A DNA stretch of 64,000 nt from Myxococcota bacterium (GTDB lineage: Bacteria; Myxococcota_A; UBA9160): assembly GCA_033853555.1 (NCBI GenBank), contig JAWOLJ010000066.1, positions 22,044 through 86,043 of the forward strand. Direction: 5' to 3'. Below are positions 4,656 through 48,852 of this stretch, piece by piece; within the stretch, counting starts at the first letter, position 1, and each line of letters starts with the position of its first letter. Below the pieces are notes generated by a model. It did no database searches. It was not told the DNA's origin and worked only from the letters and a program-made list of their open reading frames with translations. Position numbers and translations under genes: made by a program.

Positions 4656-4713
4656 GGCCGGACCCGGCGGGCGATCGCGCGGAACGCCGCGCGCGGGAGC
4701 GTTCGACACCACG

Positions 4714-24021: not shown

Positions 24022-24963
24022 TCAGCGAGGGCGAGCCCGCAGCCGGGACGCCGCGCGGCGCCTCCCGCCCAGCGCGCTGCGTCCGATTCCCAACGCCACC
24101 CCGGAGACGGCCAGGAGGAGGCCCGCCGACGGTTCGGGGACGGTCTCGGGCTGAATCGCGATCAGATGGGTCTCCGAGACATCGATCGTCAACGGGAACG
24201 GACTCTGGCAGAGCACGGAGACGCACTGGCGGAACTCGGCATCGATCGTGCCGGTGAGCGCGGGATAGAAGAATCCCGGACCCGTGTAGCTCGTGGTGAA
24301 CGCGGGATCGGTCTTGCTCTGCCAGGCTTGCGAGCCGGTTGAGGACGGCCCGCCGGGGTCGAGCGTGAGGCCGACGGAGTCGATCCGCGAGAAGGTGAGA
24401 CCCGGGAAGAGCGGCTGCTCCTGCGCAATGAACTTCGCGATCAAGTCGCTCAACGAGGCCTGGAAGATCGCGTCCACCCCGATCGAGGCATGGGTCGGTC
24501 CGGTCAGCAGGCTGTTCGTCGGGATGGGATCACCGAGCGGGACCACGACGACGAACGGCGAGTACTGGGATGGGTCGAAGGTGTAGCTGGTGGTCAGGGC
24601 CCCGATCGACGAGCTCACCTGGACCTGGACCGCGCCACCGACCGTCGCGCGGTAGACGCCCGGCGCGGTGTAGCCGAAGGCCGCGCTCACGTCCGGTACG
24701 AACCCCGACACCCCGACGCTCGCCGTGCCCGGGGTGGCGGGCCCGTTCGGGTCGAAGAGCACGCTCCCACCCAGGAACTGGACGCCCGTCGGAAGCAGGA
24801 CGGGCGTGCTGGCCAGCACGTCGTCCCGGATCTGGTAGTCGAAGGGGGTGGCGTCGCCGACGTGGACGTAGGCCGGAGCGGTGATGAAGTCCGCGTGGGC
24901 GGCCCGCGGCGGGAGACACAGGAGCGTCAGGAGGCCTAGGGCACCGAGGCCGAGCGAGCGCAT
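24022..24963 (-). CDS. PEP-CTERM sorting-domain secreted protein
   Basis: Signal peptide MRSLGLGALGLLTLLCLPPRAAHA; C-terminal ...QPETVPEPSAGLLLAVSGVALGIGRSALGGRRRAASRLRARPR. ATG 24963. The 1107-aa six-frame ORF upstream is antisense to nasA and rejected. Confidence 0.8.
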   Translation of the reverse strand: MRSLGLGALGLLTLLCLPPRAAHADFITAPAYVHVGDATPFDYQIRDDVLASTPVLLPTGVQFLGGSVLFDPNGPATPGTASVGVSGFVPDVSAAFGYTAPGVYRATVGGAVQVQVSSSIGALTTSYTFDPSQYSPFVVVVPLGDPIPTNSLLTGPTHASIGVDAIFQASLSDLIAKFIAQEQPLFPGLTFSRIDSVGLTLDPGGPSSTGSQAWQSKTDPAFTTSYTGPGFFYPALTGTIDAEFRQCVSVLCQSPFPLTIDVSETHLIAIQPETVPEPSAGLLLAVSGVALGIGRSALGGRRRAASRLRARPR

Positions 24964-25132
24964 GCGGAGCCCCTCTCGAGGTTCCCCGGCTCCCAGGGCC
25001 GGCATCCCGTGCGGGAAGGCAGGCGCAAGCCTTGTACACCGCGCGCCGCGGAGAATCAAGCTGCGCCGAGCGGGCCGGGGCGGGCGTCGCGATCGGGACG
25101 TCCCGCTGTGTCGGGGCCGCCTGCCGGCAGCC

Positions 25133-25171
25133 GAGGCACCGGCTGCGCTCGACGCAGGCACGGCTGCGCCG
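25133..25171 (+). promoter_or_regulatory. Tandem direct repeat AGGCAC(C)GGCTGCGC x2 upstream of nasA; candidate regulator binding site
   Basis: gaggcaccggctgcgctc (25133-25150) and gcaggcacggctgcgccg (25154-25171), 21-bp periodicity, about 85-120 bp upstream of the nasA start. Confidence 0.25.
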
Positions 25172-25254
25172 GCCCCCGCCCTGGTGTGCAGCCTTCCACC
25201 GCACCCGCCGAGGCATACGCCTTGCAGTTGCGCTCCACCCGAGCGGAGGCGCGA

Positions 25255-35812: not shown

Positions 35813-38089
35813 TCAGAGCGGCTCCACCCGCGCCGGCGTGCTCTTGTGCCAGGGCGTCCCCGCGAGCCAGTCCCGATCCTCGCTGCGCGTGAGCTCGTTC
35901 GGCGCGACGCCCGTCGCGACGCGCGCTCCGCTCGCGTCGGGAAAGTCGAGGCCGAGCCCGTTCGGAAGGGACACGTGCCCGGGCTGCATCCGCTCCGAGA
36001 CCTCGACCGGCACCTCGGCGCTGCCGCGCCGCGTGGTGAGGCGCACGCGGGCGCCGTCGGCCACGCCGAGGCGCTTCGCATCCTCGGGGCTGATGCGCAG
36101 CGCGCCGGCCCGGTCCTTCTTCCGCCAGTCCGGGTTGCGCAGGATGGTGTTGGCGGTGAAGGAGCGTCGCTCGCCGGCGGAGAGCAGGAACGGGAACTCC
36201 TCGCTCGGTCCGGGCGGCGGCTCGGTGGCAAGGCCGTCGAGCTCGTGGAAGAGCTCCGGCAGCGCGAGCTGGAGGCGGCCACCCGGCGTGCCGATCCGGG
36301 CGAAGCTCTCCTCCCACTCGTCCACCGAGAAGACGACCGCGCTGCGGCTCGCGAGGAGCGCGTCGAAGAGCGCGTCCGCCGCCTCCCCCGCCCCGCCCAC
36401 GAAGCCCGCGCGCGCGAGCGATCGCGCGTGCCGCTGCGCCGCGATCTGGCACAGCCCCCAGACCCCGGCGGCCTCCGCGAGTCCCTTCGGCAGGAGATCA
36501 CCGATCGCCCGGTAGAGCAGCACCGGCGCGATCGCGAGCAGGCGCGGGCTCTCGCCGACGAGCTCGAGGAAGCGGCTGCGGAAGGCCTGGCGACCGTCTC
36601 GCCATGCCGCTCGCAGCGCCGAAACGGCATCGGCGGGGAGCGCTCCCAACGCCTCCACCAGCCGCGCATGGAGCTCGGCCTCGGAGAAGAGCCCCGCCGG
36701 GGGATCCAGCAGCGCCCGGCGCAGGTGGAAGTGATTCCGTGGGAACTCGAAGTTGAAGAAGGTGGCCTCGGCCTTCTCGTACTGGCTCGCGACCGGCAGC
36801 ACGTAGTGGGCGAGCCGCGCGGTCTCGGTGAAGGCCACGTCGATCACCACCACCAGCTCGAGGGCGGCGAGGGCCTCGCGCATGCGCACGCCGTCGGCCA
36901 GCGAGTGGGCGGGATTCCCGCTCTCGACCAGGAGCGCGCGGAAGCGCTTCGGATGGTCGGTCAGGATCTCGTCGGGGATCACATTGCAGGGCGTGAGCCC
37001 GCCGATCACACGCGCGCCCGTCACCGGGGTGCGACGCTCGCCGCCGTCCTTCCCCACCGCGAGCGGCACGAGAGCGGTGGGCAGGTAGGCGGTGCCCGGC
37101 TTTCCGAAGTTGCCGGTCAGGAGGACCAGAAGCTTGTGGAGATAGGAGACCAGGGTCGAGTGGCGGTTCATCTGCACGCCCAGGTCTTCGAAGCTGGCGA
37201 CGCTCGAGGCCTCTGCGATGCGCCGCGCGGTGCGGCGCACCTGCTCCTCCGGCACCCCGCAGGTCACGCAATACTCCGCCACCGGGAGCGCCTCGAAGTG
37301 GGGCAGCACTCGGTCGAGCCCGTCGGCGTGGGCCGCGAGCCAGTCGCGAGCGATCCGCCCCTCCTGCACCAGCACGGCGAGGAGCGCAGCGAGCAGCCAG
37401 GCGTCGGTTCCGGGCTTCGCCTGGAGATGAACGTCGGCGATCTCGGCGGTCTCGCTGCGGCGCGGATCCACCACGATCAGGCAGCGCGCGGGATCCTTCG
37501 CGATCTCGCGCAGCGCGAGGCGTGCGCGGGGGATGCCGTGGGAGAGCCACGGGTTCTTGCCGAGGAAGAGCGCCACCTCGCAGTGCTCGAAGTCCGCTCG
37601 CGTGTAGCCGCCGATCATCCGGTCGGCCACCCAGAACTCGCCCGTCTTCTCCTGGGCGAGCGCGCTCGAGCGATGGATCGAGCCGAGCACGGAGCGCGTC
37701 GCGCGGCCGTAGGCCCCCGGCAGGTGGTTCCCCTGCCCGCCGCCCCCGTAGTAGAAGATGGACTCCCCGCCGAAGGCCTCCCGCACCGCCGCCAGACGCG
37801 CCGCCACCTCGCGGATCGCCGTCTCCCAGGCGATCTCCTCGAAGCTCCCGTCGCTGCGACGGCGCAGCGGCCGGGTCAGGCGGTGGGGCCCATTCTGGTA
37901 GAAGTCGAGCCGCGAGGGCTTCTCGCAGGCGTAGCCCCGGGAGGCGGGATGTGCGTCGTCGCCGCGCACGCGCAGGAGCGTCCGCCCCTCGGGCCCGCCG
38001 AGCTGAACCTCGATCCCGCAGTTGCACTCGCAGAGGATGCAGGCCGTGGACTTCCACTCGGAGGCGTGGGGGGCGGGGCTCTCGGCCAT
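35813..38089 (-). CDS. Molybdopterin-dependent oxidoreductase (formate-dehydrogenase-like MopB family)
   Basis: ...WKSTACILCECNCGIEVQL (N-terminal 4Fe-4S Cys motif), molybdopterin and MopB barrel domains, 758 aa. Confidence 0.85.
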   Translation of the reverse strand: MAESPAPHASEWKSTACILCECNCGIEVQLGGPEGRTLLRVRGDDAHPASRGYACEKPSRLDFYQNGPHRLTRPLRRRSDGSFEEIAWETAIREVAARLAAVREAFGGESIFYYGGGGQGNHLPGAYGRATRSVLGSIHRSSALAQEKTGEFWVADRMIGGYTRADFEHCEVALFLGKNPWLSHGIPRARLALREIAKDPARCLIVVDPRRSETAEIADVHLQAKPGTDAWLLAALLAVLVQEGRIARDWLAAHADGLDRVLPHFEALPVAEYCVTCGVPEEQVRRTARRIAEASSVASFEDLGVQMNRHSTLVSYLHKLLVLLTGNFGKPGTAYLPTALVPLAVGKDGGERRTPVTGARVIGGLTPCNVIPDEILTDHPKRFRALLVESGNPAHSLADGVRMREALAALELVVVIDVAFTETARLAHYVLPVASQYEKAEATFFNFEFPRNHFHLRRALLDPPAGLFSEAELHARLVEALGALPADAVSALRAAWRDGRQAFRSRFLELVGESPRLLAIAPVLLYRAIGDLLPKGLAEAAGVWGLCQIAAQRHARSLARAGFVGGAGEAADALFDALLASRSAVVFSVDEWEESFARIGTPGGRLQLALPELFHELDGLATEPPPGPSEEFPFLLSAGERRSFTANTILRNPDWRKKDRAGALRISPEDAKRLGVADGARVRLTTRRGSAEVPVEVSERMQPGHVSLPNGLGLDFPDASGARVATGVAPNELTRSEDRDWLAGTPWHKSTPARVEPL

Positions 38090-38170: not shown

Positions 38171-38659
38171 ATGGGGCGGAAGCGCTTCTCCCACATGAAC
38201 TGCGGGATCGGCCAGGCGCTGGAGGTGCTCGGCGACTGGTGGACGCTGCTGATCGTGCGCGACGCCTTCTTCGGCGTGCGGCGCTTCGGCGACTTCGAGC
38301 GCAGCCTCGGCATCGCTAAGAACATCCTCACGGCGCGCCTCCAGCACCTGGTGGACCACGGGATCTTCGAGCGGGTGGACGTGGGCCACGAGGGGCATCG
38401 CTTCGAGTACCGGCTCACCGCGAAGGGCGAGGCGCTCCTCCCGGTGCTGACCACCCTGCGCGAGTGGTCGGACGAGTGGGTCTTCGGGCGCGGCCACGAG
38501 CCCGTGCTCGTGCAGGATCGGCGCACGGGGCGGCGCGTGCCGAGGCTCCGCGTGACCGACGCGGACGGCCGTCCGCTCTCACGGCGCGATGTCCGCGCGG
38601 TGCCGGGGCCCGGCGCGTCGAAGGACACGATCCGCCGGCTCCAGCCGCGCGGGAGCTGA
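38171..38659 (+). CDS. HxlR-family (MarR-like wHTH) transcriptional regulator
   Basis: ...CGIGQALEVLGDWWTLLIVRDAFFGVRRFGDFERSLGIAKNILTARLQHLVDHGIFER: canonical HxlR/YtcD motif. Confidence 0.8.
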   Translation: MGRKRFSHMNCGIGQALEVLGDWWTLLIVRDAFFGVRRFGDFERSLGIAKNILTARLQHLVDHGIFERVDVGHEGHRFEYRLTAKGEALLPVLTTLREWSDEWVFGRGHEPVLVQDRRTGRRVPRLRVTDADGRPLSRRDVRAVPGPGASKDTIRRLQPRGS

Positions 38660-38673
38660 TCCCTCGGCGCGCG

Positions 38674-39336
38674 TCAGCCGCGGCGAGCCGGCTCCGCGCC
38701 GGTGAGCTCGCGCACGAGCGTCGCCTCCAGGAGCGCGAGCTCACCCTCGGGCAGCCGCGCCCTGGGGCCGGCCAGCAGGAGCGACGCCGCGAGGCCCACC
38801 AGCACCGAGACGGTGTAGTGCTGGAGCAGGCGGTGGCGCGCCGGGGAGAGCGGCGCGTCGTGGAACAGCCGTCGCCACACCGCGTCGAAGGCGCGGAACA
38901 TCCGGGTCTGCCACGACGGCTCCCGGGCCGGATGCAGGTCCGTTCGACGCAAGTGGTCGAGCAGGATCTCGAAGGTCGAGGCGTACTCGCGACTCGCGAA
39001 GTGCTGCCACGCCCGCGCCACGAACAGGGACGCTCGCTCCGCGAGCCCGATTCCCTCCCTTGGCACGTCCGCCAGGCGCAGCTCGAAGCGGCGGAAGGAG
39101 TCCTCGAGCACCGCCATCAGGATGCCGTCCTTGTCGCCGAAGTGGTGCTGCACCGCACCCCAGGTGACGCCGGCGCGGCGGGTGATCTCGCTGGCGGTGG
39201 TGCGCTGGAAGCCCCGCTCGGCGATGCAGTCGATGGTGGCGGCGAGGATGCGCGCGCGCGTCTCCGCGGTGCGCTCGGCGTGGGAGCGCCGCGCGCGACG
39301 CCGCGTCGCAGGACGAACACGGATCGCCTGGGACAC
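38674..39336 (-). CDS. TetR/AcrR-family transcriptional regulator
   Basis: GTG 39336; ...RRSHAERTAETRARILAATIDCIAERGFQRTTASEITRRAGVTWGAVQHHFGDKDGIL (TetR HTH). Divergent from the aldA-cyp51 operon. Confidence 0.8.
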   Translation of the reverse strand: MSQAIRVRPATRRRARRSHAERTAETRARILAATIDCIAERGFQRTTASEITRRAGVTWGAVQHHFGDKDGILMAVLEDSFRRFELRLADVPREGIGLAERASLFVARAWQHFASREYASTFEILLDHLRRTDLHPAREPSWQTRMFRAFDAVWRRLFHDAPLSPARHRLLQHYTVSVLVGLAASLLLAGPRARLPEGELALLEATLVRELTGAEPARRG

Positions 39337-39385
39337 CGCTACTCCGAGCCGAGGCCGGCCACGCCGGCGCCGAGTGCCATCGCAC

Positions 39386-39434
39386 CAGGCTATCACGTTT
39401 GCATTGCGCTCGAAATGTAAATGGTGGTACAAGG
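39386..39434 (+). promoter_or_regulatory. Conserved AT-rich operator/promoter element, copy 1 (upstream of aldA-cyp51 operon)
   Basis: CAGGCTATCACGTTTGCATTGCGCTCGAAATGTAAATGGTGGTACAAGG: imperfect about 40-bp palindrome (CTAYCAC...GTGRTAG; TTTGCAT...ATGNAAA). About 42/49 identical to copy 2 at 46798-46848. Confidence 0.5.
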
Positions 39435-39514
39435 GATGCGCCGGGGCGGCGGCTGGCAGGCCTCCCCGATCCCCCGGGTCGGCCCCCCGATCCGCGAGAC
39501 GTGAGGATGCTCCC

Positions 39515-40993
39515 ATGGCACTCGCCGCGCTCGAGCCCGAGACCCGCAACCTGATCGACGGCCGGCTGGTGCCGGCCTCGAACGGCGCGACCTTCGAGAA
39601 CGTGAACCCGGCCACCGAGGAGGTGCTCGGGAGCTGCGCCGACGGCACGCGCGAGGACATGCTGTCGGCGATCGCGGCCGCCCGGCGCGCCTTCGACGAG
39701 ACCCGGTGGTCCACCGATGCCGTCTTTCGCAAGCGCTGCCTGCTCCAGATCGCCGACGCGCTCAAGGCGGCGCGCGAGAAGCTGCGCTCGATCGTGGTGC
39801 ACGAGGCCGGCTCGCCGGTCCTCCTCACCTACAGCGTCCAGTGTGACTCCACGATCGACCAGTTCGGCTACTGGGCCGAGCTCGCGGGGAGCTACGAGTA
39901 CGAGCGGCCGATGCGCGAGATCCGCTTCCTCGGGCAGCCGCAGCGCCGCCTGCTGCGACGAGAAGCCACCGGTGTGGTGGGAGCCATCACGCCCTGGAAC
40001 TTTCCGCTCTACCTGAATCTCGCGAAGCTCGGGCCGGCCCTCGCCGCCGGCAACACCGTCGTGCTGAAGCCGGCGCCGGACACGCCCTGGTCGGCCACCG
40101 CCCTGGGCCGCCTGATCGCCGAGCAGACCGAGATCCCGCCGGGCGTGGTGAACGTGGTCGCCTCGTCGGAGCACGCGGTGGGCGAGCTCCTGGCGAGCGA
40201 TCCGCGCGTCGATCTCGTGACCTTCACCGGCTCGACCGCCACCGGGCGGCGGGTCATGGAGTGCGCCTCGGCGACGGTGAAGCGCGTCTTCCTGGAGCTC
40301 GGCGGAAAGTCCGCGAACGTGATCCTCGACGACGCCGACTTTGCGAAGGCCCTCGGCGGCGCCGTCACGGTCTGCACTCACGGCGGACAGGGCTGCGCGC
40401 TCACCACGCGGCTGCTCCTGCCGCGTTCGCGCTACGCCGAGGGCATCGAGATCGTGAAGCGCGCCTTCGAGAGCTGGAGCTACGGAGACCCGACGGATCC
40501 GCGGAACCTCCAGGGGCCCCAGGTGAGCCGGCGCCAGCAGGAGCGGGTGCTCGCCTACATCGAGAAAGGGAAGCGCGAGGGCGCGCGCCTCCTGACGGGC
40601 GGCGGCCGACCTTCGCGCCTGCCGAAGGGCTTCTACGTGGAGCCGACGCTCTTCGCCGACGTCGATCCGGACTCCACGATCGCGCAGGAGGAGATCTTCG
40701 GGCCGGTCCTGGCGGTGATCCCCTTCGACGGCGACGACGACGCGGTGCGGATCGCGAACCGCTCGATCTACGGCCTCTCGGGCGCGGTCACCAGCGCGAG
40801 CGAGGAGCGCGCCCTCGGCGTGGCGCGGCGCATCCGCAGCGGGACGCTCTCGGTGAACGGCGGGATGTGGTTCGACGTCGACACGCCCTTCGGCGGCTAC
40901 CGCCAGAGCGGAGTCGGACGCGAGAACGGGCTCCTCGGCTTCGAGGAGTACCTGGAGACCAAGGTGATCGCGCTCCCCGGGAGCCCGCGATGA
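39515..40993 (+). CDS. NAD(P)-dependent aldehyde dehydrogenase
   Basis: ...ITPWNFPLYLNLAKLGPALAAGNTVVLKPA..., FLELGGKSANVI (Glu active site), ...GGQGCALTTR (Cys). ATG 39515 with GAGGA upstream. Confidence 0.9.
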   Translation: MALAALEPETRNLIDGRLVPASNGATFENVNPATEEVLGSCADGTREDMLSAIAAARRAFDETRWSTDAVFRKRCLLQIADALKAAREKLRSIVVHEAGSPVLLTYSVQCDSTIDQFGYWAELAGSYEYERPMREIRFLGQPQRRLLRREATGVVGAITPWNFPLYLNLAKLGPALAAGNTVVLKPAPDTPWSATALGRLIAEQTEIPPGVVNVVASSEHAVGELLASDPRVDLVTFTGSTATGRRVMECASATVKRVFLELGGKSANVILDDADFAKALGGAVTVCTHGGQGCALTTRLLLPRSRYAEGIEIVKRAFESWSYGDPTDPRNLQGPQVSRRQQERVLAYIEKGKREGARLLTGGGRPSRLPKGFYVEPTLFADVDPDSTIAQEEIFGPVLAVIPFDGDDDAVRIANRSIYGLSGAVTSASEERALGVARRIRSGTLSVNGGMWFDVDTPFGGYRQSGVGRENGLLGFEEYLETKVIALPGSPR

Positions 40994-42396
40994 CGACGGC
41001 GGACGTCGCGATGGGAACGGCCACGGGAAGCGCGACGCAGCGGGGCGGCGCCGCGCCGCCGCGGGTCTCCGGGGGCCTGCCGTGGCTCGGGCACCTGCTC
41101 GAGCTCCGGCGCCAGCCGATCGAGCTGCTGAGCCGCGCGCGCGCCGAGTGCGGCGAGGTGGCGGAGCTGCGCCTGGCGCGCCTGCCACTGGTGATGCTCT
41201 ACGGCGAGGAGGCCCAGGAAGCCTTCTTTCGCGCGCCCGACGAGCAGCTCGACCAGGCCGCCGCCTATCCCTTCATGAAGCCGATCTTCGGCGAGGGCGT
41301 GGTGTTCGACGCCCCGCCCGAACGGCGCAAGGAGGCGCTGCGCAACCAGTCGCTGCGCGACAAGCAGATGCGCGGGCACGCGGAGGTGATCGCGGCGGAG
41401 ACCGAGCGCATGGTGAGTCGCTTCGGCGCTGGAGGAGAGATCGATCTCCTGGACTTCTTCGCCGAGCTCACGATCTACACCTCGAGCGCGTGCCTGATCG
41501 GGAAGCCCTTCCGCGAGGAGCTGACCCCCGAGTTCTCGAGGGTCTACCACGATCTCGAGCGCGGCACCGACGCCATTGCCTACGTGAACGCGCATCTCCC
41601 GATCCCGTCCTTCCGCAAGCGCGACCGGGCGCGCAGGCGGCTGGTCGAGCTGGTCACCGAGATCATGCAGGCGCGCGCCCGCTCCGGAGAGAGCAAGGGA
41701 GACCTGCTGGACGTGCTGATGCGCGTGCGCCTCGAAGACGGTCGCCCGCGCTTCTCGGCCGACGAGATCACGGGGATGTTCATCTCCATGATGTTCGCGG
41801 GCCACCACACCACCTCGGGGACCGCGGCCTGGACCCTGATCGAGCTGCTGCGAAACCCCGGCCAGATGGCCGGCGTGACGGCCGAGCTGGATCGCCTCTT
41901 CGCCGACGGCGGCGAGGTCTCCTACCACGCGCTGCGCGAGATCCCCCGGCTCGAGAATGCGATCAAGGAGACGCTGCGGCTCCATCCCCCGCTGATCCTG
42001 CTGCTGCGCAAGGTGGCCGAGGACTTCCACTACAAGGGCTGGACCATCGCGGCGGGAAAGCTCGTCGGGACCTCACCCGCCGTCTCGAACCGGATCCCGG
42101 AGTACTTCCCCGATCCCGATCGCTTCGATCCCGGGCGCTACCTGGAGGGGCGCGAGGAGGACGTGCGACATCCCTTCGGCTGGATTCCCTTCGGAGCGGG
42201 ACGGCATCGCTGCGTGGGCGCAGCCTTCGCGATGATCCAGCTCAAGGCGATCTTCAGCGTGCTGCTGCGGCGCTTCGAGCTCGAGCTGGCGCAGCCGCCC
42301 GCGAGCTACCGCAACGACCACTCCAAGATGGTGGTGCAGCTCGCCCAGCCGTGCCGCGTGCGCTACCGCCGGCGCGCCGCCCGAGCGGGCGCATGA
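40990..42396 (+). CDS. cyp51: Cytochrome P450 CYP51, sterol 14-alpha-demethylase
   Basis: Near-colinear with M. tuberculosis CYP51 (from memory): AYPFMKPIFGEGVVFDAPPERRKE, EIDLLDFFAELTIYTSSACLIGK, RFSADEITGMFISMMFAGHHTTSGTAAWTLIEL, ETLRLHPPLILLLR, WIPFGAGRHRCVGAAFAMIQLKAIFSVLLRRFELELAQPPASYRNDHSKMVVQLAQPCRVRYRRR. Confidence 0.9.
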   Translation: MTTADVAMGTATGSATQRGGAAPPRVSGGLPWLGHLLELRRQPIELLSRARAECGEVAELRLARLPLVMLYGEEAQEAFFRAPDEQLDQAAAYPFMKPIFGEGVVFDAPPERRKEALRNQSLRDKQMRGHAEVIAAETERMVSRFGAGGEIDLLDFFAELTIYTSSACLIGKPFREELTPEFSRVYHDLERGTDAIAYVNAHLPIPSFRKRDRARRRLVELVTEIMQARARSGESKGDLLDVLMRVRLEDGRPRFSADEITGMFISMMFAGHHTTSGTAAWTLIELLRNPGQMAGVTAELDRLFADGGEVSYHALREIPRLENAIKETLRLHPPLILLLRKVAEDFHYKGWTIAAGKLVGTSPAVSNRIPEYFPDPDRFDPGRYLEGREEDVRHPFGWIPFGAGRHRCVGAAFAMIQLKAIFSVLLRRFELELAQPPASYRNDHSKMVVQLAQPCRVRYRRRAARAGA

Positions 42397-42590
42397 AGAT
42401 CCGGGTCGACCTCGATCTGTGTCAGGGGCACGGCGTCTGCGCCGAGGAGGCCCCGGAGGTGTTCGCGCTGGACGAGCAGAGATCCAAGGTGGTGCTGCGC
42501 GACCCGAGCCCGCCGGAGGCGCAGCGCGCGCGGGTGAAGGCCGCCGTCCGCTACTGCCCCACGCATGCCCTCGCGCTGCTCGAGGACTGA
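42393..42590 (+). CDS. 3Fe-4S/4Fe-4S ferredoxin, P450 redox partner (Rv0763c-like)
   Basis: MKIRVDLDLCQGHGVCAEEAPEVFALDEQ...AAVRYCPTHALALLED: CxxHxxC...CP ferredoxin. ATGA overlap with cyp51 stop. Confidence 0.85.
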   Translation: MKIRVDLDLCQGHGVCAEEAPEVFALDEQRSKVVLRDPSPPEAQRARVKAAVRYCPTHALALLED

Positions 42591-42617
42591 ACCGCCCACC
42601 CCTCACCCGGAGGCCCC

Positions 42618-43184
42618 ATGCCCGCCTTCCCCCGTGCCGAGCTCGAAGAGATGATCCGCCGCTTCGTGGCCGTGAACGACGAGTGCGGCCAGAGCGGGAG
42701 CTGGGACGCGCTCGGCCGCTTCTATGCCGAGGACGCGATCTACTCCTGGAACCTCGGCCCGAAGTTCGAGTTCGTGGCGCGCGGCCGCGAGGAGATCCGC
42801 AAGTGGGTGCTCGGCACCGAGATGGCGGGCCTCGACAAGTGGGTCTACCCGTACGTGCGTACGCTGGTGGACGACCAGAAGGGCGAGGTGATCGGCATCT
42901 GGCGGCAGATCGCCCCGGTGAAGGGCGAGGACGGCAAGCCCATCGAGATCGCCGGCACCGGCGGCTCCTGGTTCCGCTACGCCGGCAACTGGCAGTGGAG
43001 CTGGCAGCGGGACTTCTTCGATCACGGGAACGCGGGCGCGGTCTTCCTGGAGCTGCTGCAGAAGGGGCGTCTCTCGCCGGCGATGCAGGAGCGCCTGAAG
43101 CGCGGCTCGAAGCAGCCGGGCTGGGTGCCGCGCGAGAGCTTCGACTGGTACGCCAGCATCCAGGAGCGCGAGGACCGCGGGTGA
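42618..43184 (+). CDS. NTF2-like/SnoaL-like family protein
   Basis: ...EEMIRRFVAVNDECGQSGSWDALGRFYAEDAIYSWNLGPKFEFVARGREEIRKWVLG: cone-shaped alpha+beta barrel pattern (ketosteroid-isomerase-like fold superfamily). Confidence 0.65.
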   Translation: MPAFPRAELEEMIRRFVAVNDECGQSGSWDALGRFYAEDAIYSWNLGPKFEFVARGREEIRKWVLGTEMAGLDKWVYPYVRTLVDDQKGEVIGIWRQIAPVKGEDGKPIEIAGTGGSWFRYAGNWQWSWQRDFFDHGNAGAVFLELLQKGRLSPAMQERLKRGSKQPGWVPRESFDWYASIQEREDRG

Positions 43185-44035
43185 GCTCGGCCGGAAGACC
43201 GCTCGCCGCGGCGACGCTCGCGGGCGTCGCGCGCGCCGACGGGGCCCGCTGGTTCGCCGCCGATCCGGGCAAGGCCTGGGGCGAGAAGTTCTTCCTGCTC
43301 TACACGCCGGTCTGGATGACCGGCATGGCGCTCATGATGAAGAGCGGCGCGGCGGGGCGCTGGGGCGATCGGGCCCAGCTCGCCGCCCACCTCGCGCTCT
43401 GGCTTCCGCTCCTGCTGCTCCCGCCCCTGCTCCACTCCGAGCGCGCGCTCGGCCGCAGCTTCACGGAGAGCTACGCCTTCAAGGCGTTTCTCTGGCTCGG
43501 CGTCTTCTCCTTCGTCGGGAGCTACTTCGGGAGCGAGTACTTCTTCGACGTCCTCGGGATGGTCTACCGCTTCGCCAATCTCCACTGGACCATGGACTCG
43601 GCGCTCCTCGGATCGGGCGAGCAGCACGTCCCGCTCATCATGTACTTCTCCGCGCACTTCTACTTCGTGAGCTACCACACCGCCGCGGTGGTGGTGATGC
43701 GTCGCGTGCGGAGCTCGCGGCTCTTCGTGCATCCGCTGGTCTGGGCACTGGTGATCCTCGGCTGCGCCTACGGCTTCGCCTGGGCCGAGACCTTCTTCAT
43801 GACCGACCCCTCGATCGCGGCGCAGTTCACCTACCGCGACGTGCCGCGCATGCTGCGCTGGGGCTCGCTCGTCTACGCGCTCTACTTCGTGGTGAGCTTC
43901 CCCATGTTCTACCGGCTGGACGAGGCTCCCGGCGAGCGCTGGCCCCTGCGCCGCGTCGTCCTGGAGGCCCTCGCGGCCGGCATGCTCGTGCTCTTCCTGC
44001 TCGACTTCGCGACCCACGCGATCGGGCGGCTCTGA
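43181..44035 (+). CDS. Seven-TM membrane protein resembling cycloeucalenol cycloisomerase (CPI1) family
   Basis: GTG 43181, GTGA overlap. Motifs WGEKFFLLYTPVWMTG, FKAFLWLGVFSFVGSYFGSEYFFDVLGMVYRF, VSYHTAAVVVMRR, LVYALYFVVSFPMFYRLDE. As I recall them, plant CPI1 has WGELFFLFYTP..., VFSYVGNYFWTHYFFKVLGA..., FYAIYFIVSFPMFFRMDE. No His boxes. Confidence 0.7.
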   Translation: MSSAGRPLAAATLAGVARADGARWFAADPGKAWGEKFFLLYTPVWMTGMALMMKSGAAGRWGDRAQLAAHLALWLPLLLLPPLLHSERALGRSFTESYAFKAFLWLGVFSFVGSYFGSEYFFDVLGMVYRFANLHWTMDSALLGSGEQHVPLIMYFSAHFYFVSYHTAAVVVMRRVRSSRLFVHPLVWALVILGCAYGFAWAETFFMTDPSIAAQFTYRDVPRMLRWGSLVYALYFVVSFPMFYRLDEAPGERWPLRRVVLEALAAGMLVLFLLDFATHAIGRL

Positions 44036-44059
44036 GTGGCGAGTCGGGAGGAGAGGACC

Positions 44060-44863
44060 GTGCGCGACATCCTTGGCTACGCGGGGAAGCGGGTGGTGGT
44101 GAGCGGCGCGGCGTCCGGCATGGGCGCCGCCACGGCCCGGACGCTGGTGGATCTCGGCGCCGAGGTCCATGCCCTCGACCTGAAGCCGATCCAGGTCCCG
44201 GTGGCCCGGGCGCTGGAGGTGGACCTGCGTCGCCGCGAGTCGATCGACGCGGCGCTGGCGCATCTTCCCGAGCGCGTGGACGCCCTCTTCAACTGCGCCG
44301 GGCTCCCCGGCGCACCGTTCTCGAACCTCGACACCATGCTGGTGAACTTCGTGGGCCTGCGGCACCTGACCGAGGGCGTGCTGTCGCGCCTGCCATCGGG
44401 TGGAGCGGTCGCGAGCATCACCTCGGTCGCCGGCATGGGCTGGCGCAAGAACCTCGAGAACGTCAGGGCGCTCTGCGGCACCAAGGACTTCGACGAGGCG
44501 CGCGCCTGGTGCGAGGCGCATCCCAAGGAGGCCAACGGCTATCTCTTCTCCAAGCAGTGCATCATCTGGTACACGATGCAGCGCGCGGTCGAGCTGGTGG
44601 CTCGCGGGATCCGGATGAACTGCATCTCTCCCTCGCCCACCGACACGCCCATGCTCCCGGCGTTCCACGCCCAGGTGAATCGCGAGTTCATCGACAAGCA
44701 CTTCCTGGCCCCGATCGGACGCAACGCCACCCCGGAGGAGATGGCCGAGCCCTTGGTGCTCCTGAACTCGAACGCCGCGCGCTTCGTCTCGGGCGTGAAC
44801 CTGTTCGTGGACTGGGGCTATCTGGCCGAGCTCGAGGTCGGGGCGCGGCCCGCGCTGCTCTGA
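44060..44863 (+). CDS. Short-chain dehydrogenase/reductase (SDR), atypical short N-terminus
   Basis: GTG 44060 after AGGAG (alternative GTG 44036 directly abutting CPI stop). ...GKRVVVSGAASGMGAATARTLVDLGAEV..., NCAG..., YLFSKQCIIWYT (YxxxK), ...ISPSPTDTPML. Confidence 0.8.
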   Translation: MRDILGYAGKRVVVSGAASGMGAATARTLVDLGAEVHALDLKPIQVPVARALEVDLRRRESIDAALAHLPERVDALFNCAGLPGAPFSNLDTMLVNFVGLRHLTEGVLSRLPSGGAVASITSVAGMGWRKNLENVRALCGTKDFDEARAWCEAHPKEANGYLFSKQCIIWYTMQRAVELVARGIRMNCISPSPTDTPMLPAFHAQVNREFIDKHFLAPIGRNATPEEMAEPLVLLNSNAARFVSGVNLFVDWGYLAELEVGARPALL

Positions 44864-44876
44864 GCCGACGCCGGCC

Positions 44877-45251
44877 CTAGCGCCCCGGCGCGCTCTTGTC
44901 GCGCTCGGCGCGGAGCGCGCGCACGACCTGGCTCGCCACGGCCGCCACCGGCCAGCCCGCATAGTGCGCCACGTGGAGGATCAGCTCGTCGATCTCGACG
45001 TCGCTGAGCTGCTTCTGCCGCATCGCCGCGCCGAGATGGAGCTTCAGCGTCGCCTCGTGTCCGAGCTGCATCAGCACCACCAGCGTTGCGATGCGGCGCT
45101 CCTTCAAGCCGAGCCCGGGTCGGGCCCACACGTCGGCGAAGAGGTGGTCCACGGTGCTGTCCATGAAGGGCTCGCTCGGGATGGCCGGTGGTCGGAAGCC
45201 CATCACCCGGTCGAACCACTCGAGGCCCTTCGCGCGCTGCTCCTCGCTCAT
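44877..45251 (-). CDS. Carboxymuconolactone decarboxylase (CMD/AhpD-like) family protein
   Basis: MSEEQRAKGLEWFDRVMGFRPP...DHLFADVWARPGLGLKERRIATLVVLMQLGHEATLKLHLGAAMRQKQLSDVEIDELILHVAHYAGWP: CMD domain. ATGA overlap with upstream gene. Confidence 0.75.
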   Translation of the reverse strand: MSEEQRAKGLEWFDRVMGFRPPAIPSEPFMDSTVDHLFADVWARPGLGLKERRIATLVVLMQLGHEATLKLHLGAAMRQKQLSDVEIDELILHVAHYAGWPVAAVASQVVRALRAERDKSAPGR

Positions 45252-45916
45252 CGGCTTCCACCACGCTTCTCGACCGGTCCGAACTCGAAGCTCGCGGCGG
45301 TCGAGAGCCGCGTGATCTTCGTGATGGCCGCCTCCTCCGCGGGCGGCGCATCGTCCTCGATCGTCACCTCCCAGTGACAGACGGGCTTGCGGTCCTTGGG
45401 ATCGCGCGGGGGCCGGTGCACCGGGCGGCACTTCGCGCGCGGGTTCACCGCCTGCATCGTGGCGTCGAAGGTCGGATCCTCGATGTGATGGCACATCGAG
45501 ACCACTCGCGCCTCGCCCCAGGGCTCGACGTCGGCGAGGGCTCCGCAGTGGTCGAGCCAGAAGTATCCCTTCTTCGGGCTCACCACCTCGTAGTGCACGT
45601 CCATGTACTGGTGGGGAAAGCCCGGATCGAGCTGCAGCGACTTGAAGATCGAGGCCACGTCGTCGCCCTCGATCTTCATCGCCTTGCGGATGCGCTGGGT
45701 GTAGACCGGCGAGGCGCCGCGCCACTCCTCGATCGCGAGCTCCTCCATCGCCTTCGCCCCGAAGCGCTGCAGGATGGCGGGCATGATGGCGCGATCGAGC
45801 AGGTGGGCGGCGAGCATGAGCTCGCGGCACAGCGTGACCAGCGCCTCCTTCGAGAAGTCCTCGAGACGCAGGTCCGGATCGAATTCCCCGCTGTAGTCCT
45901 CGCGTTCTTCGAACAC
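45248..45916 (-). CDS. Hypothetical Cys/His-rich protein (222 aa), translationally coupled to the CMD gene
   Basis: MFEEREDYSGEFDPDLRLEDF...YFWLDHCGALAD...VSMCHHIEDPTF...KPVCHWEV; possible metal-binding; no family recognised. Confidence 0.55.
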   Translation of the reverse strand: MFEEREDYSGEFDPDLRLEDFSKEALVTLCRELMLAAHLLDRAIMPAILQRFGAKAMEELAIEEWRGASPVYTQRIRKAMKIEGDDVASIFKSLQLDPGFPHQYMDVHYEVVSPKKGYFWLDHCGALADVEPWGEARVVSMCHHIEDPTFDATMQAVNPRAKCRPVHRPPRDPKDRKPVCHWEVTIEDDAPPAEEAAITKITRLSTAASFEFGPVEKRGGSR

Positions 45917-45929
45917 CCTCGCTCCTCCT

Positions 45930-46793
45930 CTAGCGGCGCCGCGGATCCTCGAGCCCGTACACGCGGGCCATCAGCTGCGAGGCCAGCGCGGTGCCGGGCA
46001 GCGCGATGCCGCACTGCCGCGCCAGCGCCAGCGTCGCGGCGAGATCCTTCTCGGCGATCTCGACGAAGCCGCGCAGCAGCCCCTGGAAGCCCTCGCTGGT
46101 GCGGCTCGCCTCGGGAGCCTTGTGGAGCGCCAGGAACGCGCGCATCGGCTCGGTCAGGTTGCCGTTCGAGCCCGTCACCTCCTCCAGCACCGCCGGGGAG
46201 AGGCCCGCGGCGCGGGCCAGCAGGCTCGCCTCGTAGGCGGAGATCCACGCGAGGTAGGTCATCAGGTTGTTGCAGAGCTTCGTCTTGCAGCCGCTCCCGA
46301 GCGGGCCGGTGTGAACGACCTTCTTGGCAAAGCAGTCGAGCAGCGGGCGCGCACGCTCCAGCGCCGCGGCCGCGCCGCCGGCCATCACCGTGAGCGTGCC
46401 CTGGGCCGCGCCGGCCGCGCCGCCCGTGATGCAGGCATCGATCACCTCGACGCCGCAGCGCTGCGCCTCGACCGCCACCTCCTCCACCGTCGCCGGCTGC
46501 ACCGTGCTGTGGATCGCGACGACGGTGCCCCGCGCCGCGCCGGCGAGGACCCCGTCGGCGCCGCGCATCACGCTGCGCACGTCCGCGTCGTCGCGCACGC
46601 AGACGCCGATCGCGTCGCTCGCCGCCGCCACCTCGCGGGGTGTCGCGGCGCCTCGCGCGCCGGCGGCCTCGAGCTGGCGCACGCGCTCGGGGAGCGCGTC
46701 GCAGACGGTCGTGGGGAGGCCAGCCGCCACCAGCCGCTTCGCCATCGGCAAGCCGATGTTCCCCAGCCCGATGAAGCCCGCGCGGATCCCCAT
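45930..46793 (-). CDS. NAD(P)-binding 3-hydroxyisobutyrate/6-phosphogluconate dehydrogenase-like oxidoreductase
   Basis: MGIRAGFIGLGNIGLPMAKRLVAAG (Rossmann GxGxxG) ...GTLTVMAGG...ALERARPLLDCFAKKVVHTGPLGSGCKTKL: HIBADH family. Confidence 0.8.
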   Translation of the reverse strand: MGIRAGFIGLGNIGLPMAKRLVAAGLPTTVCDALPERVRQLEAAGARGAATPREVAAASDAIGVCVRDDADVRSVMRGADGVLAGAARGTVVAIHSTVQPATVEEVAVEAQRCGVEVIDACITGGAAGAAQGTLTVMAGGAAAALERARPLLDCFAKKVVHTGPLGSGCKTKLCNNLMTYLAWISAYEASLLARAAGLSPAVLEEVTGSNGNLTEPMRAFLALHKAPEASRTSEGFQGLLRGFVEIAEKDLAATLALARQCGIALPGTALASQLMARVYGLEDPRRR

Positions 46794-46797
46794 GTGC

Positions 46798-46848
46798 CCA
46801 GGCTACCACATTTGCATTGCGCTCGTTATGGAAATGGTGATAGCGTGG
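46798..46848 (+). promoter_or_regulatory. Conserved AT-rich operator/promoter element, copy 2 (between HIBADH-like gene and second P450)
   Basis: CCAGGCTACCACATTTGCATTGCGCTCGTTATGGAAATGGTGATAGCGTGG; see copy 1. Confidence 0.5.
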
Positions 46849-46855: not shown

Positions 46856-48070
46856 ATGGACGCCGCCGCCCACCCGCAGGCGCCGCTCGAGTTCGACCCC
46901 TACGCCTACGCGGTGCACGAGGATCCCTATCCCTTCTACGCGCGCCTGCGCGCCGAGGCGCCGCTCTATCGCAACGAGCGGCTCGGCTTCTGGGCGCTCT
47001 CGCGCCACGCGGACGTGCTGGCGGCGTTCCGCGACTGGGAGCACCTCTCCAACCGTCACGGCGTGTCGCTCGACGTCGACGCCTTCCACGAGCGGGCCGA
47101 CACCACCATGTCGTTCCTGGCGATGGATCCGCCACGCCACGACCGGCTGCGGGCCCTGGTCTCGCGCGGCTTCACGCCGCGGCGCGTGGCGGAGCTGGAG
47201 CCCCACGTGCGCGCCCTCTCCAGGCGCTATCTCGAGGCGTTCGTGGAGCGAGGAAGCTGCGACTTCATCGGTGACTTCGCGGGCAAGCTTCCGATGGACG
47301 TGGTCAGCGAGATGCTCGGTGTACCGTCCGACGATCGCGCGACGCTCCGCGAGTGGGCGGATCTGGTGGTGCACCGCGAGCCCGGGGTGAACGGGCTCCC
47401 GCCGGCGGCCGCGCAGTCGGCGCTGCGCATGCTGCACTACTTCACCGAGATGCTCGCGGACCGCCGCAAGCAGCCGCGCGACGATCTGACCGGTGCGCTC
47501 ATCGCCGCTGAGCTCGAGGGCGATCGATTGACCGACCACGAGATCATCGGCTTCCTCTTCCTGATGGTGGTGGCGGGAAACGAGACCACCACCAAGCTCC
47601 TCGGCAACGCCCTGTACTGGCTGTGGCGGCATCCCTCGGAGCGCGAGCGGCTGCGCGCCGATCCAGCCCTGGTCCCGCGCTGGGTCGAGGAGACGCTGCG
47701 CTACGACAACTCGACCCAGGCGCTCGCGCGCCTCGCCGCCGCCGACGTCGAGCTCCACGGCCAGAAGGTCCGCGCCGGCGATCGCGTGGTGCTGCTGGTG
47801 GGCTCGGCCAACCGCGACGAGCGCGCCTTCGTCCATCCGGATCGCTACGACCTGCTGCGCGACACCAGCGCCTCCCTCTCGTTCGGACAGGGCGTCCACT
47901 TCTGCCTCGGCGCCTCGCTCGCACGGCTCGAGGCCCGGGTGTCGCTGGACGAGGTCTGGCGGCACATCCCCGACTACGAGATCGACGCGGAGAGCGCGGT
48001 CCGGGTCCACTCGGTGAACGTGCGCGGCTTCGCGAAGCTTCCGCTGGTGTTCGGTCGATCGGTCCGATGA
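46856..48070 (+). CDS. Cytochrome P450 (second, non-CYP51; CYP123/125-like class)
   Basis: ...FLFLMVVAGNETTTKLLGNAL (I-helix AGxETT), ETLRYD (ExxR), FGQGVHFCLGASLARLE (haem Cys loop). Confidence 0.9.
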   Translation: MDAAAHPQAPLEFDPYAYAVHEDPYPFYARLRAEAPLYRNERLGFWALSRHADVLAAFRDWEHLSNRHGVSLDVDAFHERADTTMSFLAMDPPRHDRLRALVSRGFTPRRVAELEPHVRALSRRYLEAFVERGSCDFIGDFAGKLPMDVVSEMLGVPSDDRATLREWADLVVHREPGVNGLPPAAAQSALRMLHYFTEMLADRRKQPRDDLTGALIAAELEGDRLTDHEIIGFLFLMVVAGNETTTKLLGNALYWLWRHPSERERLRADPALVPRWVEETLRYDNSTQALARLAAADVELHGQKVRAGDRVVLLVGSANRDERAFVHPDRYDLLRDTSASLSFGQGVHFCLGASLARLEARVSLDEVWRHIPDYEIDAESAVRVHSVNVRGFAKLPLVFGRSVR

Positions 48071-48852
48071 GCGCCGTGCGCGTCGCGATCGTGACGGGCG
48101 CCTCCTCGGGGATCGGCGCGGCGATCGCGCGCGCGCTCGGCGCCCGCGGCTTCGTGGTGGCGCTCGGCGCCCGGCGCACGGAGGAGCTCGCCGCGGTGGC
48201 GAGGCAGGTGGAGGGGGGCGGCGGCCGGGCGGTGGTGCTGCAAGTGGACCTCTCCGATACCGCCTCGCTCGACGCGTTCTTCGACGCCGCCGAGGCCGCC
48301 CTGGGCCCGGTCGACGTTCTGGTGAACAACGCCGGGATCTGCGTGCCCGGCCTGCTCCACGAGATCGATCCGACCGCCGTGCAGCGCGAGCTCGCGGTGA
48401 ATCTCCTGGCGCCGGCGCTCCTGGCGCGACGTGCGATCCGGTCGCTCCTCTCCCGCGATGTGCGGGGAGACCTGATCTGGATCTCGTCCGAGAACGTGGT
48501 GGCGCCACGGCCCTTCCAGCCGGGCTACACCGCCAGCAAGTGGGGTCTCGAGGGCCTCGCCCGCACGCTTCGCCTCGAGCTCGCCGGGACCGGCATTCGC
48601 TCCACCATCGTGCGCCCCGGCCCCACCTTCCCCACCGACTTCGCCCGCGGCTGGGACCCCGCGCTGGTGAAGCGCCTCCTCGAAACCTGGAACGCGCTCG
48701 GCCTCCAGCGCCACCTCCAATGGCTCCCGGCCGAGAGCGTCGCGGAGGCGGTGGCGGCGGTGGTCACCGCACCGCCGGGTACGCACTTCGACATCGTCGC
48801 GCTCGGCCCCGAATCTCCCCCCGAGCTGAGGATCGTCGGGACCGCGCGCTGA
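48067..48852 (+). CDS. Short-chain dehydrogenase/reductase (SDR)
   Basis: MSAVRVAIVTGASSGIGAAIARAL (TGxxxGIG), NNAG, ...YTASKWGLEGLARTLRLEL (YxxxK). ATGA overlap with P450 stop. Confidence 0.85.
   Translation: MSAVRVAIVTGASSGIGAAIARALGARGFVVALGARRTEELAAVARQVEGGGGRAVVLQVDLSDTASLDAFFDAAEAALGPVDVLVNNAGICVPGLLHEIDPTAVQRELAVNLLAPALLARRAIRSLLSRDVRGDLIWISSENVVAPRPFQPGYTASKWGLEGLARTLRLELAGTGIRSTIVRPGPTFPTDFARGWDPALVKRLLETWNALGLQRHLQWLPAESVAEAVAAVVTAPPGTHFDIVALGPESPPELRIVGTAR

What the first reader, a model, noticed from the sequence alone, without database searches (positions are those of the whole stretch)
39386..39434. 49-bp AT-rich palindromic element duplicated at two promoters flanking the sterol-like cluster (copy 1)
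About 42 of 49 positions are identical between 39386-39434 and 46798-46848, each in a divergent intergenic gap and sharply AT-rich against an about 72% GC background. Copy 1 lies between the TetR gene and aldA-cyp51. Copy 2 lies between the HIBADH-like gene and the second P450. The sequence forms nested inverted repeats (CTAYCAC...GTGRTAG and TTTGCAT...ATGNAAA), as expected for a dimeric TetR operator overlapping a promoter. This ties the two P450 operons, and the divergent HIBADH-CMD operon, into one regulon, probably under the adjacent TetR with a lipid or sterol ligand.
Basis: seen in the sequence. Interest (0 to 1): 0.7.

Follow-up and report, generated by a model that had tools for sequence, protein, structure and literature searches.

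The report
Duplicated TetR operator at CYP51 cluster
Two copies of a roughly 50-bp AT-rich control region, each apparently holding back-to-back promoters and the binding site of the neighbouring TetR-type repressor, control a CYP51/P450 redox gene cluster in an uncultured Myxococcota-like bacterium; the switch is of an ordinary kind, but the repressor is unrelated to the one that controls the same cluster in mycobacteria.

Summary
The repeat is real. 39386-39434 matches 46799-46847 at 39/49 positions, GC is 47-49% against 72.5% for the window, and there are no other copies in 64 kb. It is not a dispersed repeat.

The core TTTACAT-N10-ATGTAAA, with fixed spacing, lies upstream of the operon carrying this TetR's orthologue in at least 51 of 64 related loci. 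A DNA-only scan of species genomes found it, in high-GC genomes, almost only at this cluster or beside TetRs with the same DNA-binding head.

Relatives have one divergent gap: P450-SDR-Aldedh-CYP51-Fdx-SnoaL <-|-> HIBADH-CMD-TetR. The window lineage split this and duplicated the control region. Copy 1 keeps a 13-codon possible remnant of the HIBADH start, ending 2 nt before the TetR start codon.

I read the outer repeats as two divergent extended -10 boxes (TGnTAnnnT), often feeding leaderless mRNAs. The inner palindrome is the operator. Its half-sites are 17 bp apart, which suggests two dimers rather than one.

The enzymes are orthologous to the mycobacterial hpoR/Rv0762c-Rv0771 cluster. The TetR is not an HpoR homologue (BLASTP E=1.3), and HpoR boxes are absent. 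The ligand is unknown.

Verdict: a new member of a known kind, of moderate interest.

The parts
39378..39433 (.). Copy 1 of the control region: operator plus two back-to-back promoters, running from the mini-ORF ATG to the rightward -10-like box
   Evidence: In-register match to copy 2. Conserved in L209, whose TetR is 88% identical.
39398..39421 (.). Copy 1 operator core, TTTGCAT-N10-ATGTAAA. The TTTGCATTGC half faces the TetR gene.
   Evidence: PWM score 46.1 bits; no hit above 12 bits in 282 kb of shuffled DNA.
39387..39395 (-). Leftward extended -10 box TGATAGCCT. Six nt further on is the ATG at 39380, which would give a leaderless transcript (inferred).
   Evidence: TANNNT lies 5-7 nt beyond the half-site in 69/76 sites, against 6% in shuffled flanks.
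39425..39433 (+). Rightward -10-like box TGGTACAAG, serving the Aldedh-CYP51 operon (inferred). An untranslated leader of about 75 nt follows, with GAGGA before the ATG at 39515.
   Evidence: Sequence and positional analogy to copy 2 and orthologues. It lacks the final T of TANNNT.
39339..39380 (-). 13-codon mini-ORF MALGAGVAGLGSE*, a possible remnant of the HIBADH 5' end (MGIRAGFIGLGN...). Its stop TAG lies 2 nt before the TetR GTG.
   Evidence: L209 keeps the same start, length and stop (MALCTGIVGFGSR*). DNA identity to the HIBADH start is only 22/47, p about 0.017.
38674..39336 (-). TetR-family regulator, 220 aa, with an Arg-rich disordered N-terminal arm followed by the HTH
   Evidence: Pfam TetR_N 3.9e-13. 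AlphaFold pLDDT 87.5, with residues 1-18 unstructured. Arm and HTH are nearly invariant in 58 homologues.
39515..44863 (+). Operon Aldedh (Rv0768-like), CYP51, ferredoxin, SnoaL-like, unknown 284 aa, SDR
46791..46846 (.). Copy 2 of the control region, running from the HIBADH ATG to the rightward -10 box
46811..46834 (.). Copy 2 operator core, TTTGCAT-N10-ATGGAAA
   Evidence: PWM score 45.7 bits.
46800..46808 (-). Leftward extended -10 box TGGTAGCCT. Six nt further on is the HIBADH ATG at 46793 (leaderless, inferred).
46838..46846 (+). Rightward extended -10 box TGATAGCGT. Nine nt further on is the P450 ATG at 46856.
44877..46793 (-). Operon HIBADH-like, unknown 222 aa, CMD
46856..48852 (+). 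Operon starting with the second P450 (CYP123/Rv0766c-like, 56% identical) and an SDR (Rv0765c-like, 48079-48852)

Best explanation
Each copy is a compact bidirectional control region. Two back-to-back promoters place their -10 boxes (TGnTAnnnT) in the outer 'inverted repeat' and their weak -35 regions in the central 10 bp. In the spacer of each promoter lies one half of a 24-26 bp palindrome, (A)TTTACAT-N10-ATGTAAA(T). This palindrome is the operator of the TetR encoded at 38674-39336.

Bound repressor would block RNA polymerase at both promoters. Binding is probably by two dimers, because the half-sites are 17 bp apart, and may be helped by the Arg-rich N-terminal arm in the narrow minor groove of the ATTT/AAAT tracts. 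An unknown small-molecule inducer would release it.

The window has two copies because its lineage split an ancestral single divergent unit (P450-SDR-Aldedh-CYP51-Fdx-SnoaL <-|-> HIBADH-CMD-TetR) into two units, each keeping a copy of the control region. TetR therefore still autoregulates and still controls all four transcription units.

Shown: the repeat, its conservation, position and orientation, its co-occurrence with this DNA-binding domain, the ancestral gene order, and the -10/ATG geometry. Inferred: actual binding, repression, stoichiometry, transcription start sites, and the duplication-plus-deletion route.
For: Only two copies exist in the window. The orthologous loci L002, L004 and L007 carry the same palindrome in the single divergent gap. 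The inner palindrome, with a strict 10-bp spacer, is present in 56 of 89 loci.

In the logo the most conserved bases are CATTTACAT ... G ... GCAATGTAAAT, including positions that were not used to select the sites. Every PWM hit in about 450 kb lies upstream of the HIBADH/TetR operon, except a second site before one neighbouring gene, and 50 of 51 hits have the same orientation.

In the genome scan by DNA pattern alone, about 30 hits lie in the cluster, nearly all in GC-rich Myxococcota or 'Deltaproteobacteria' MAGs. Two Burkholderiales hits lie beside TetRs that are only 31-40% identical overall but share the arm and HTH, RRSHAER...AGVTxGAxQHHF.

TANNNT lies 5-7 nt outside the half-site in 69/76 sites (6% in controls) and is followed by ATG 6-10 nt later in 34/76 (0.7% in controls). 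L209 (88% TetR identity) shares the split arrangement, while L210 (81%) keeps the CMD-TetR overlap. Other lineages also show split units that each keep a site (L098 plus L163; L194).

The two classes of TetR-DNA complex, one dimer on about 15 bp and two dimers on about 28 bp, are described in PMC6018408. Minor-groove binding by an Arg-rich arm is described for SimR in PMC3241653.
Against: There is no binding or expression data for this protein. A strict sigma-70 consensus scan finds no promoter in either gap, and the -35 regions are weak. The conserved central GCAA could be a -35 (TTGC on the other strand) or part of the operator. It persists at the second site, which has no divergent gene, and that favours the operator reading.

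Thirteen of 64 loci with upstream sequence gave no hit; most are short contigs whose upstream gene was probably missed. In AT-rich genomes the pattern also occurs by chance, and some of those chance hits score high.
Confidence: 0.8

Rival explanations
1. The element consists only of promoter sequence: shared -35/-10 or UP-like AT-rich elements of two divergent promoters, perhaps for an alternative sigma factor. No repressor binds it.
For: The outer repeats fit extended -10 boxes and the central bases fit TTGnnn. AT-rich DNA is expected at promoters in a 72% GC genome.
Against: The strongest conservation is in the promoter spacers, as a palindrome with invariant 10-bp spacing. The motif travels with one particular TetR DNA-binding head, even in Burkholderiales with different neighbouring genes. 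It is kept upstream of the TetR operon where no divergent P450 exists.
Confidence: 0.07
2. The element is the operator of a different regulator, not the adjacent TetR. Candidates are the neighbouring HxlR-family protein (38171-38659) or a global regulator. AAATGTGAT resembles a CRP half-site.
For: An HxlR gene lies next to the TetR gene. TGTGA/TCACA appear in some copies.
Against: HxlR is absent from the orthologous loci that keep the motif. The TGTGA bases vary between loci, and they lie 22 bp or more apart in everted order rather than as TGTGA-N6-TCACA.
Confidence: 0.05
3. The system is the myxobacterial version of the mycobacterial HpoR system: the same regulator family member, responding to c-di-GMP/H2O2, on a diverged box.
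For: The regulated enzymes are orthologous to Rv0762c-Rv0771. HpoR represses that cluster through two boxes in the divergent gap (PMC5909442).
Against: BLASTP of the window TetR against Rv0767c gives E=1.3, with not even the HTH aligned. RGACANNTGTCC is absent from both gaps and from the rest of the window, apart from one intragenic 1-mismatch site, which is fewer than chance predicts. The Mtb locus has HpoR boxes but no PWM hit.
Confidence: 0.03
4. The element is a dispersed repeat or mobile element (REP/MITE-like) that landed in two intergenic gaps by chance.
For: It is palindromic, AT-rich and present in two copies.
Against: There are only two copies in 64 kb. The position is orthologous across dozens of lineages with 50-88% TetR identity. 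There are no terminal repeats or target duplications.
Confidence: 0.01

Closest known systems
HpoR (Rv0767c / MSMEG_5860) and the hpoR operon of mycobacteria (PMC5909442)
   Same: A TetR-family repressor is encoded inside the cluster and acts in the divergent gap of an orthologous gene set: Aldedh 57%, CYP51 62%, CYP123-like P450 56%, Fdx 48%, SnoaL 47%, SDR 38%, HIBADH 36%, CMD 33% identity to the Mtb locus. It has more than one binding site and regulates its own gene.
   Different: The regulators show no detectable pairwise similarity (E=1.3). The HpoR box is a 12-bp palindrome, RGACANNTGTCC, whereas here the site is TTTACAT-N10-ATGTAAA. Gene order differs. The effector here is unknown, whereas HpoR binds c-di-GMP.
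QacR/TtgR-class TetR operators bound by two dimers (PMC6018408; PMC6821364)
   Same: The operator is a long imperfect palindrome of about 26-30 bp that overlaps the promoter. The conserved outer half-sites are too far apart for one dimer, and further conserved bases lie near the dyad. From memory, unverified: the TtgR operator reads TTTACA-N12-TGTAAG, the same geometry.
   Different: Stoichiometry is not tested here. The proteins share only the generic N-terminal domain. The targets are redox enzymes, not efflux pumps.
SimR of Streptomyces antibioticus (PMC3241653)
   Same: A TetR with a disordered Arg-rich N-terminal arm ahead of the HTH, with its operators in a divergent intergenic region.
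   Different: SimR binds as a single dimer per operator and its minor-groove site is not an A-tract. There is no sequence relationship beyond the family. The role of the arm here is inferred only.
TetR/tetO divergent tetR-tetA control region
   Same: The repressor gene and its target are transcribed divergently from overlapping promoters that one operator region occludes. Two operator copies serve one repressor.
   Different: tetO is a 15-bp site for one dimer and its two copies lie within a single gap. Here the two copies are 7.4 kb apart and arose from splitting an operon.

Membership tests
TetR-family repressor with operator in its own promoter region | A protein with a TetR_N helix-turn-helix domain is encoded next to the site | tested here: met
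   PF00440, E=3.9e-13. The model shows the all-helical TetR fold, pLDDT 87.5. The fold search returns TetR structures only.
TetR-family repressor with operator in its own promoter region | A palindromic site lies upstream of the regulator's own transcription unit and is conserved with the regulator | tested here: met
TetR-family repressor with operator in its own promoter region | Specific DNA binding, released by a ligand | not testable with these tools
   This needs EMSA or footprinting and a ligand screen.
HpoR (Rv0767c) regulon | The regulator is orthologous to HpoR | tested here: not met
   BLASTP against the Rv0767c product from Mtb locus L208 gives best E=1.3. tblastn of the TetR against L208 finds nothing at E<=1e-3.
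HpoR (Rv0767c) regulon | 12-bp box (G/A)GACANNTGTCC in the regulatory gap | tested here: not met
   No box is present in either gap, while Mtb has two.
HpoR (Rv0767c) regulon | The controlled genes are the aldA/cyp51/cyp123/SDR/HIBADH/CMD redox cluster | tested here: met
   TIGR04284 aldehy_Rv0768 scores 714 bits, just under its cut-off of 775. Mtb CYP51B1 scores 617 bits. Eight proteins are 33-62% identical to L208.
HpoR (Rv0767c) regulon | c-di-GMP binds the regulator | not testable with these tools
Dimer-of-dimers TetR operators (QacR class) | An operator of about 28 bp whose conserved half-sites cannot be spanned by one dimer | tested here: met
   The half-sites are 17 bp apart centre to centre with an invariant 10-bp spacer, spanning 24-26 bp. 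The class is defined in PMC6018408.
Dimer-of-dimers TetR operators (QacR class) | Two dimers bind cooperatively on opposite faces of the DNA | not testable with these tools
   This needs a stoichiometry measurement or a complex model.
Dispersed intergenic repeat (REP/MITE) | Many copies at unrelated positions | tested here: not met
   Two copies in 64 kb. In high-GC genomes the motif is almost confined to this cluster.
Structured RNA (riboswitch or leader) | A match to an Rfam family | tested here: not met
   No match at gathering threshold in the window, and none at E<=1 in 39300-39560.

The most novel reading that the evidence does not exclude
A portable DNA-reading module has replaced HpoR as the controller of the CYP51-CYP123 cluster outside Actinobacteria. 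The module is the Arg-rich arm, an invariant HTH, and its 26-bp TTTACAT-N10-ATGTAAA operator. Its variable ligand domain would sense the still-unknown physiological substrate of bacterial CYP51B1/CYP123. The repressor-operator pair could then serve as a biosensor to identify that substrate. In addition, the 13-codon HIBADH remnant would be a functional leaderless mini-ORF that couples TetR translation to the promoter.
Probability: 0.3. Interest if true: 0.6.

Novelty: new member of a known kind. Interest (0 to 1): 0.38.

Why it matters
What CYP51 and its neighbouring enzymes do in bacteria that make no sterols is, to my knowledge, unresolved. In mycobacteria the cluster is known only as an HpoR-repressed, H2O2-protective operon made up largely of hypothetical redox enzymes (PMC5909442).

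This analysis shows that the same eight-gene cluster is widespread in uncultured Myxococcota-like bacteria and is wired to a different, well-delimited repressor and operator. That gives a second, independent entry point. The inducer of a pathway-local TetR is often a substrate or intermediate of the pathway.

The locus also illustrates how a regulon grows when an operon splits and each part keeps a copy of the control region.

Beyond that, this is a conventional TetR switch.

Tried and rejected
- The strict sigma-70 consensus scan of both gaps found nothing. Promoter assignments therefore rest on the conserved TGnTAnnnT geometry.
- A search for exact inverted repeats with 6-nt seeds found none in either copy. 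The palindrome is imperfect in this genome.
- Rfam found no RNA family.
- The HpoR box is absent and HpoR orthology is absent. I reached the Mtb locus by rebuilding the CYP51B1 sequence from a PDB alignment.
- PDB sequence and fold searches with the TetR returned only generic TetR neighbours (DarR, FadR, FasR, KstR; TM 0.5-0.64, at most 27% identity). No ligand can be inferred.
- A literature search for the half-site strings gave only incidental primer matches.
- The right flank of copy 1 showed no significant trace of the P450 start (21/51 identical). The 22-codon ORF at 39435-39503 is not length-conserved in L209.
- The CRP-like reading of AAATGTGAT was rejected on spacing and variability.
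It cannot define the regulon of the source genome.
- I first translated 48081-48852 in the wrong frame. The SDR is 48079-48852.

Full report
**Observation.** In register (offset 7413), 39386-39434 matches 46799-46847 at 39 of 49 positions, and the core 39390-39429 matches at 34 of 40. This is slightly less than the '42 of 49' claimed. The elements are 47-49% GC, and their inner 26 bp 38%, in a window of 72.5% GC. The inverted repeats are real but imperfect in this genome, and there is no exact 6-nt inverted seed.

**Gene map.** I used third-position GC frame analysis, Pfam, NCBIfam, PDB sequence searches and the gene calls of the public MAG contig that carries the identical TetR (GCA_037916855.1). 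Together these give:
- HxlR, 38171-38659 (+)
- TetR, 38674-39336 (-)
- copy 1
- Aldedh 39515-40993, CYP51 40990-42396, ferredoxin, SnoaL-like, unknown 284 aa, SDR ending at 44863 (all +)
- CMD, unknown 222 aa, HIBADH-like, 44877-46793 (all -)
- copy 2
- second P450 46856-48070, SDR 48079-48852, and further genes (+)

TetR homologues named by their sources are from Myxococcota or 'Deltaproteobacteria' MAGs.

**Relatives.** Loci carrying TetR orthologues of 61-78% identity have a single divergent gap: P450-(SDR)-Aldedh-CYP51-Fdx-SnoaL <-|-> HIBADH-CMD-TetR, or <-|-> TetR-HIBADH. The same palindrome sits in that gap. Eighty more TetR-anchored metagenome loci show the same synteny.

The inner palindrome TTTACAT-N10-ATGTAAA, always with a 10-bp spacer, is present in 56 of 89 loci. 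Most of the others are short contigs. The logo is CATTTACAT-at.Gc.tGCA-ATGTAAAT, and it is strongly conserved at positions that were not used to pick the sites.

I built a 32-nt weight matrix from these sites. It gives no hit above 12 bits in 282 kb of shuffled DNA. In the real loci it hits only the gap upstream of the HIBADH/TetR operon, plus, in the closest clade, a second site directly upstream of an unknown 424-aa gene. Where at least 150 nt upstream of the first gene of the TetR operon is available, 51 of 64 loci have a hit, and 50 of those 51 share one orientation, with the GCAATGTAAAT half facing the TetR operon.

**A test that starts from DNA.** I scanned one genome per GTDB species for ATTTVCATNNNGNNNRCAAKGNAAAT.
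- About 85 hits are in low-GC genomes without the cluster, roughly what chance predicts.
- About 30 hits lie in the cluster context, nearly all in GC-rich Myxococcota or 'Deltaproteobacteria' MAGs.
- Two hits are in Burkholderiales MAGs, 115-190 bp upstream of TetR genes that are only 31-40% identical overall. These TetRs keep the N-terminal arm and the helix-turn-helix, RRSHAER...AGVTxGAxQHHF.

That arm and HTH are nearly invariant in 58 homologues of 59-88% identity. The operator therefore travels with one DNA-reading head. This is the best available evidence, short of an experiment, that this TetR binds it.

**Anatomy.** TANNNT lies 5-7 nt outside the right half-site in 69 of 76 unique sites, against 6% in shuffled flanks. 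It is preceded by TGn in 32 of those 69, and followed by ATG 6-10 nt later in 34 of 76, against 0.7% in controls. On the other side, TANNNT lies 5-6 nt out in 45 of 76.

- copy 2: TGGTAGCCT-N6-ATG for HIBADH, and TGATAGCGT-N9-ATG for the P450
- copy 1: TGATAGCCT-N6-ATG, and TGGTACAAG

Many of the HIBADH/TetR-side transcripts would then be leaderless.

The central 10 bp often read ATTGnnnGCAAT, which is two back-to-back TTGnnn -35-like elements. GCAA is also kept at the second site, which has no divergent gene, so it may belong to the operator. A strict sigma-70 scan finds nothing, so these promoter assignments are inference.

Each operator half-site lies in the spacer between the -35 and -10 of one promoter. 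The half-sites are 17 bp apart centre to centre. TetR-family proteins bind either as one dimer on about 15 bp or as two dimers on about 28 bp (PMC6018408), and native TtgR and PmeR sites are about 30 bp (PMC6821364). The geometry here fits the second class. The model of the protein has an unstructured Arg-rich arm (residues 1-18) before helix 1. In SimR such an arm binds the minor groove (PMC3241653), and the flanking ATTT/AAAT tracts would suit that. This too is inferred.

**Why there are two copies.** L209 (TetR 88% identical, from an independent sample) has the window's arrangement, Aldedh <-|site|-> TetR. L210 (81%) still has CMD overlapping TetR. The split therefore occurred in the window's recent lineage.

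Copy 1 keeps the -10, the N6 and an ATG in register with the HIBADH start. This opens a 13-codon ORF, MALGAGVAGLGSE*, compared with HIBADH MGIRAGFIGLGN. The ORF ends in TAG 2 nt before the TetR GTG. L209 keeps the same start, length and stop with a diverged peptide. DNA similarity in this flank is weak (22/47, p about 0.017), so 'HIBADH remnant' is probable rather than proven.

The simplest route is duplication of the whole unit followed by complementary deletions. Other lineages also show split units that each keep a site: L098 plus L163 from one MAG, and L194 with a site before CYP51.

**Comparison with what is known.** The cluster is the counterpart of M. tuberculosis Rv0762c-Rv0771.
- The aldehyde dehydrogenase scores 714 bits on TIGR04284 'aldehy_Rv0768'.
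- The first P450 scores 617 bits on Mtb CYP51B1.
- Eight proteins are 33-62% identical to the Mtb locus (L208).

In mycobacteria this cluster is repressed by the TetR HpoR (Rv0767c/MSMEG_5860) through two 12-bp boxes, RGACANNTGTCC, and HpoR responds to c-di-GMP and H2O2 (PMC5909442). The Mtb gap does contain two such boxes.

The window TetR, however, has no significant similarity to Rv0767c (BLASTP E=1.3). HpoR boxes are absent from both gaps, and the Mtb locus has no hit to the motif found here. The system therefore works like the HpoR system but is not a member of it. A different TetR lineage has been recruited to the same enzyme set.

The closest solved TetRs share only the generic fold, so nothing can be said about the ligand. 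Among the window ORFs I scanned I saw no sterol-synthesis genes. No open-access paper I could search describes this operator.

**Verdict.** Three corrections apply: the outer repeats are promoter boxes, the operator geometry points to two dimers rather than one, and the ligand is unknown. This is a new member of a well-known kind of switch. The modest points of interest are the non-orthologous regulator on a conserved CYP51 cluster and the duplicated control region with its mini-ORF.

Noticed in passing
window 45248-45916 (-): The unknown 222-aa protein in the HIBADH-CMD operon has no Pfam or NCBIfam hit. It is 85-88% identical in loci whose TetR is only 63-68% identical (L006, L024, L025, L093), and it is absent from the M. 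tuberculosis cluster.
   Followed up: partly
L002 10702-12018 (also L009, L011-L014, L139, L156, L158, L187): In the closest clade a second operator copy (GCAATTTGCATCACGxxxGCAATGTAAATGTA) lies directly upstream of an unknown 424-aa gene next to an RND efflux pump. A 39-42% homologue of that gene lies inside the operon in L045, L083 and L088.
   Followed up: partly
L143 4186-4217 and L152 2633-2664: Burkholderiales MAGs carry the same TTTACAT-N10-ATGTAAA site upstream of TetRs that share only the Arg-rich arm and the HTH with the window protein. This suggests a wider TetR subfamily defined by its DNA-reading head.
   Followed up: partly
window 39435-39503 (+): A 22-codon ORF (MRRGGGWQASPIPRVGPPIRET*) fills the leader between copy 1 and the Aldedh start. 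L209 has indels here, so it is probably not coding.
   Followed up: partly
window 43181-44035 (+): An unknown 284-aa protein lies between the SnoaL-like gene and the SDR. It has no family hit, and its coding strand is T-rich (AT skew about -0.3 to -0.6), which may indicate a membrane protein. The Mtb locus has no counterpart.
   Followed up: no
L006 (whole locus): Gene calls in this long contig are fragmented: CYP51 is in two pieces and the P450 is truncated. Its operator has an 11-bp spacer. This looks like indel errors in a long-read assembly rather than biology.
   Followed up: no
window 24940-30206 and 35813-38089: Two molybdopterin oxidoreductases and a large NirB-like nitrite/sulfite reductase fusion (Pyr_redox_2, NIR_SIR, BFD and Rieske domains) flank the cluster. 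Glycogen genes (GlgC-like and GlgA-like) lie at 3333-6150.
   Followed up: no
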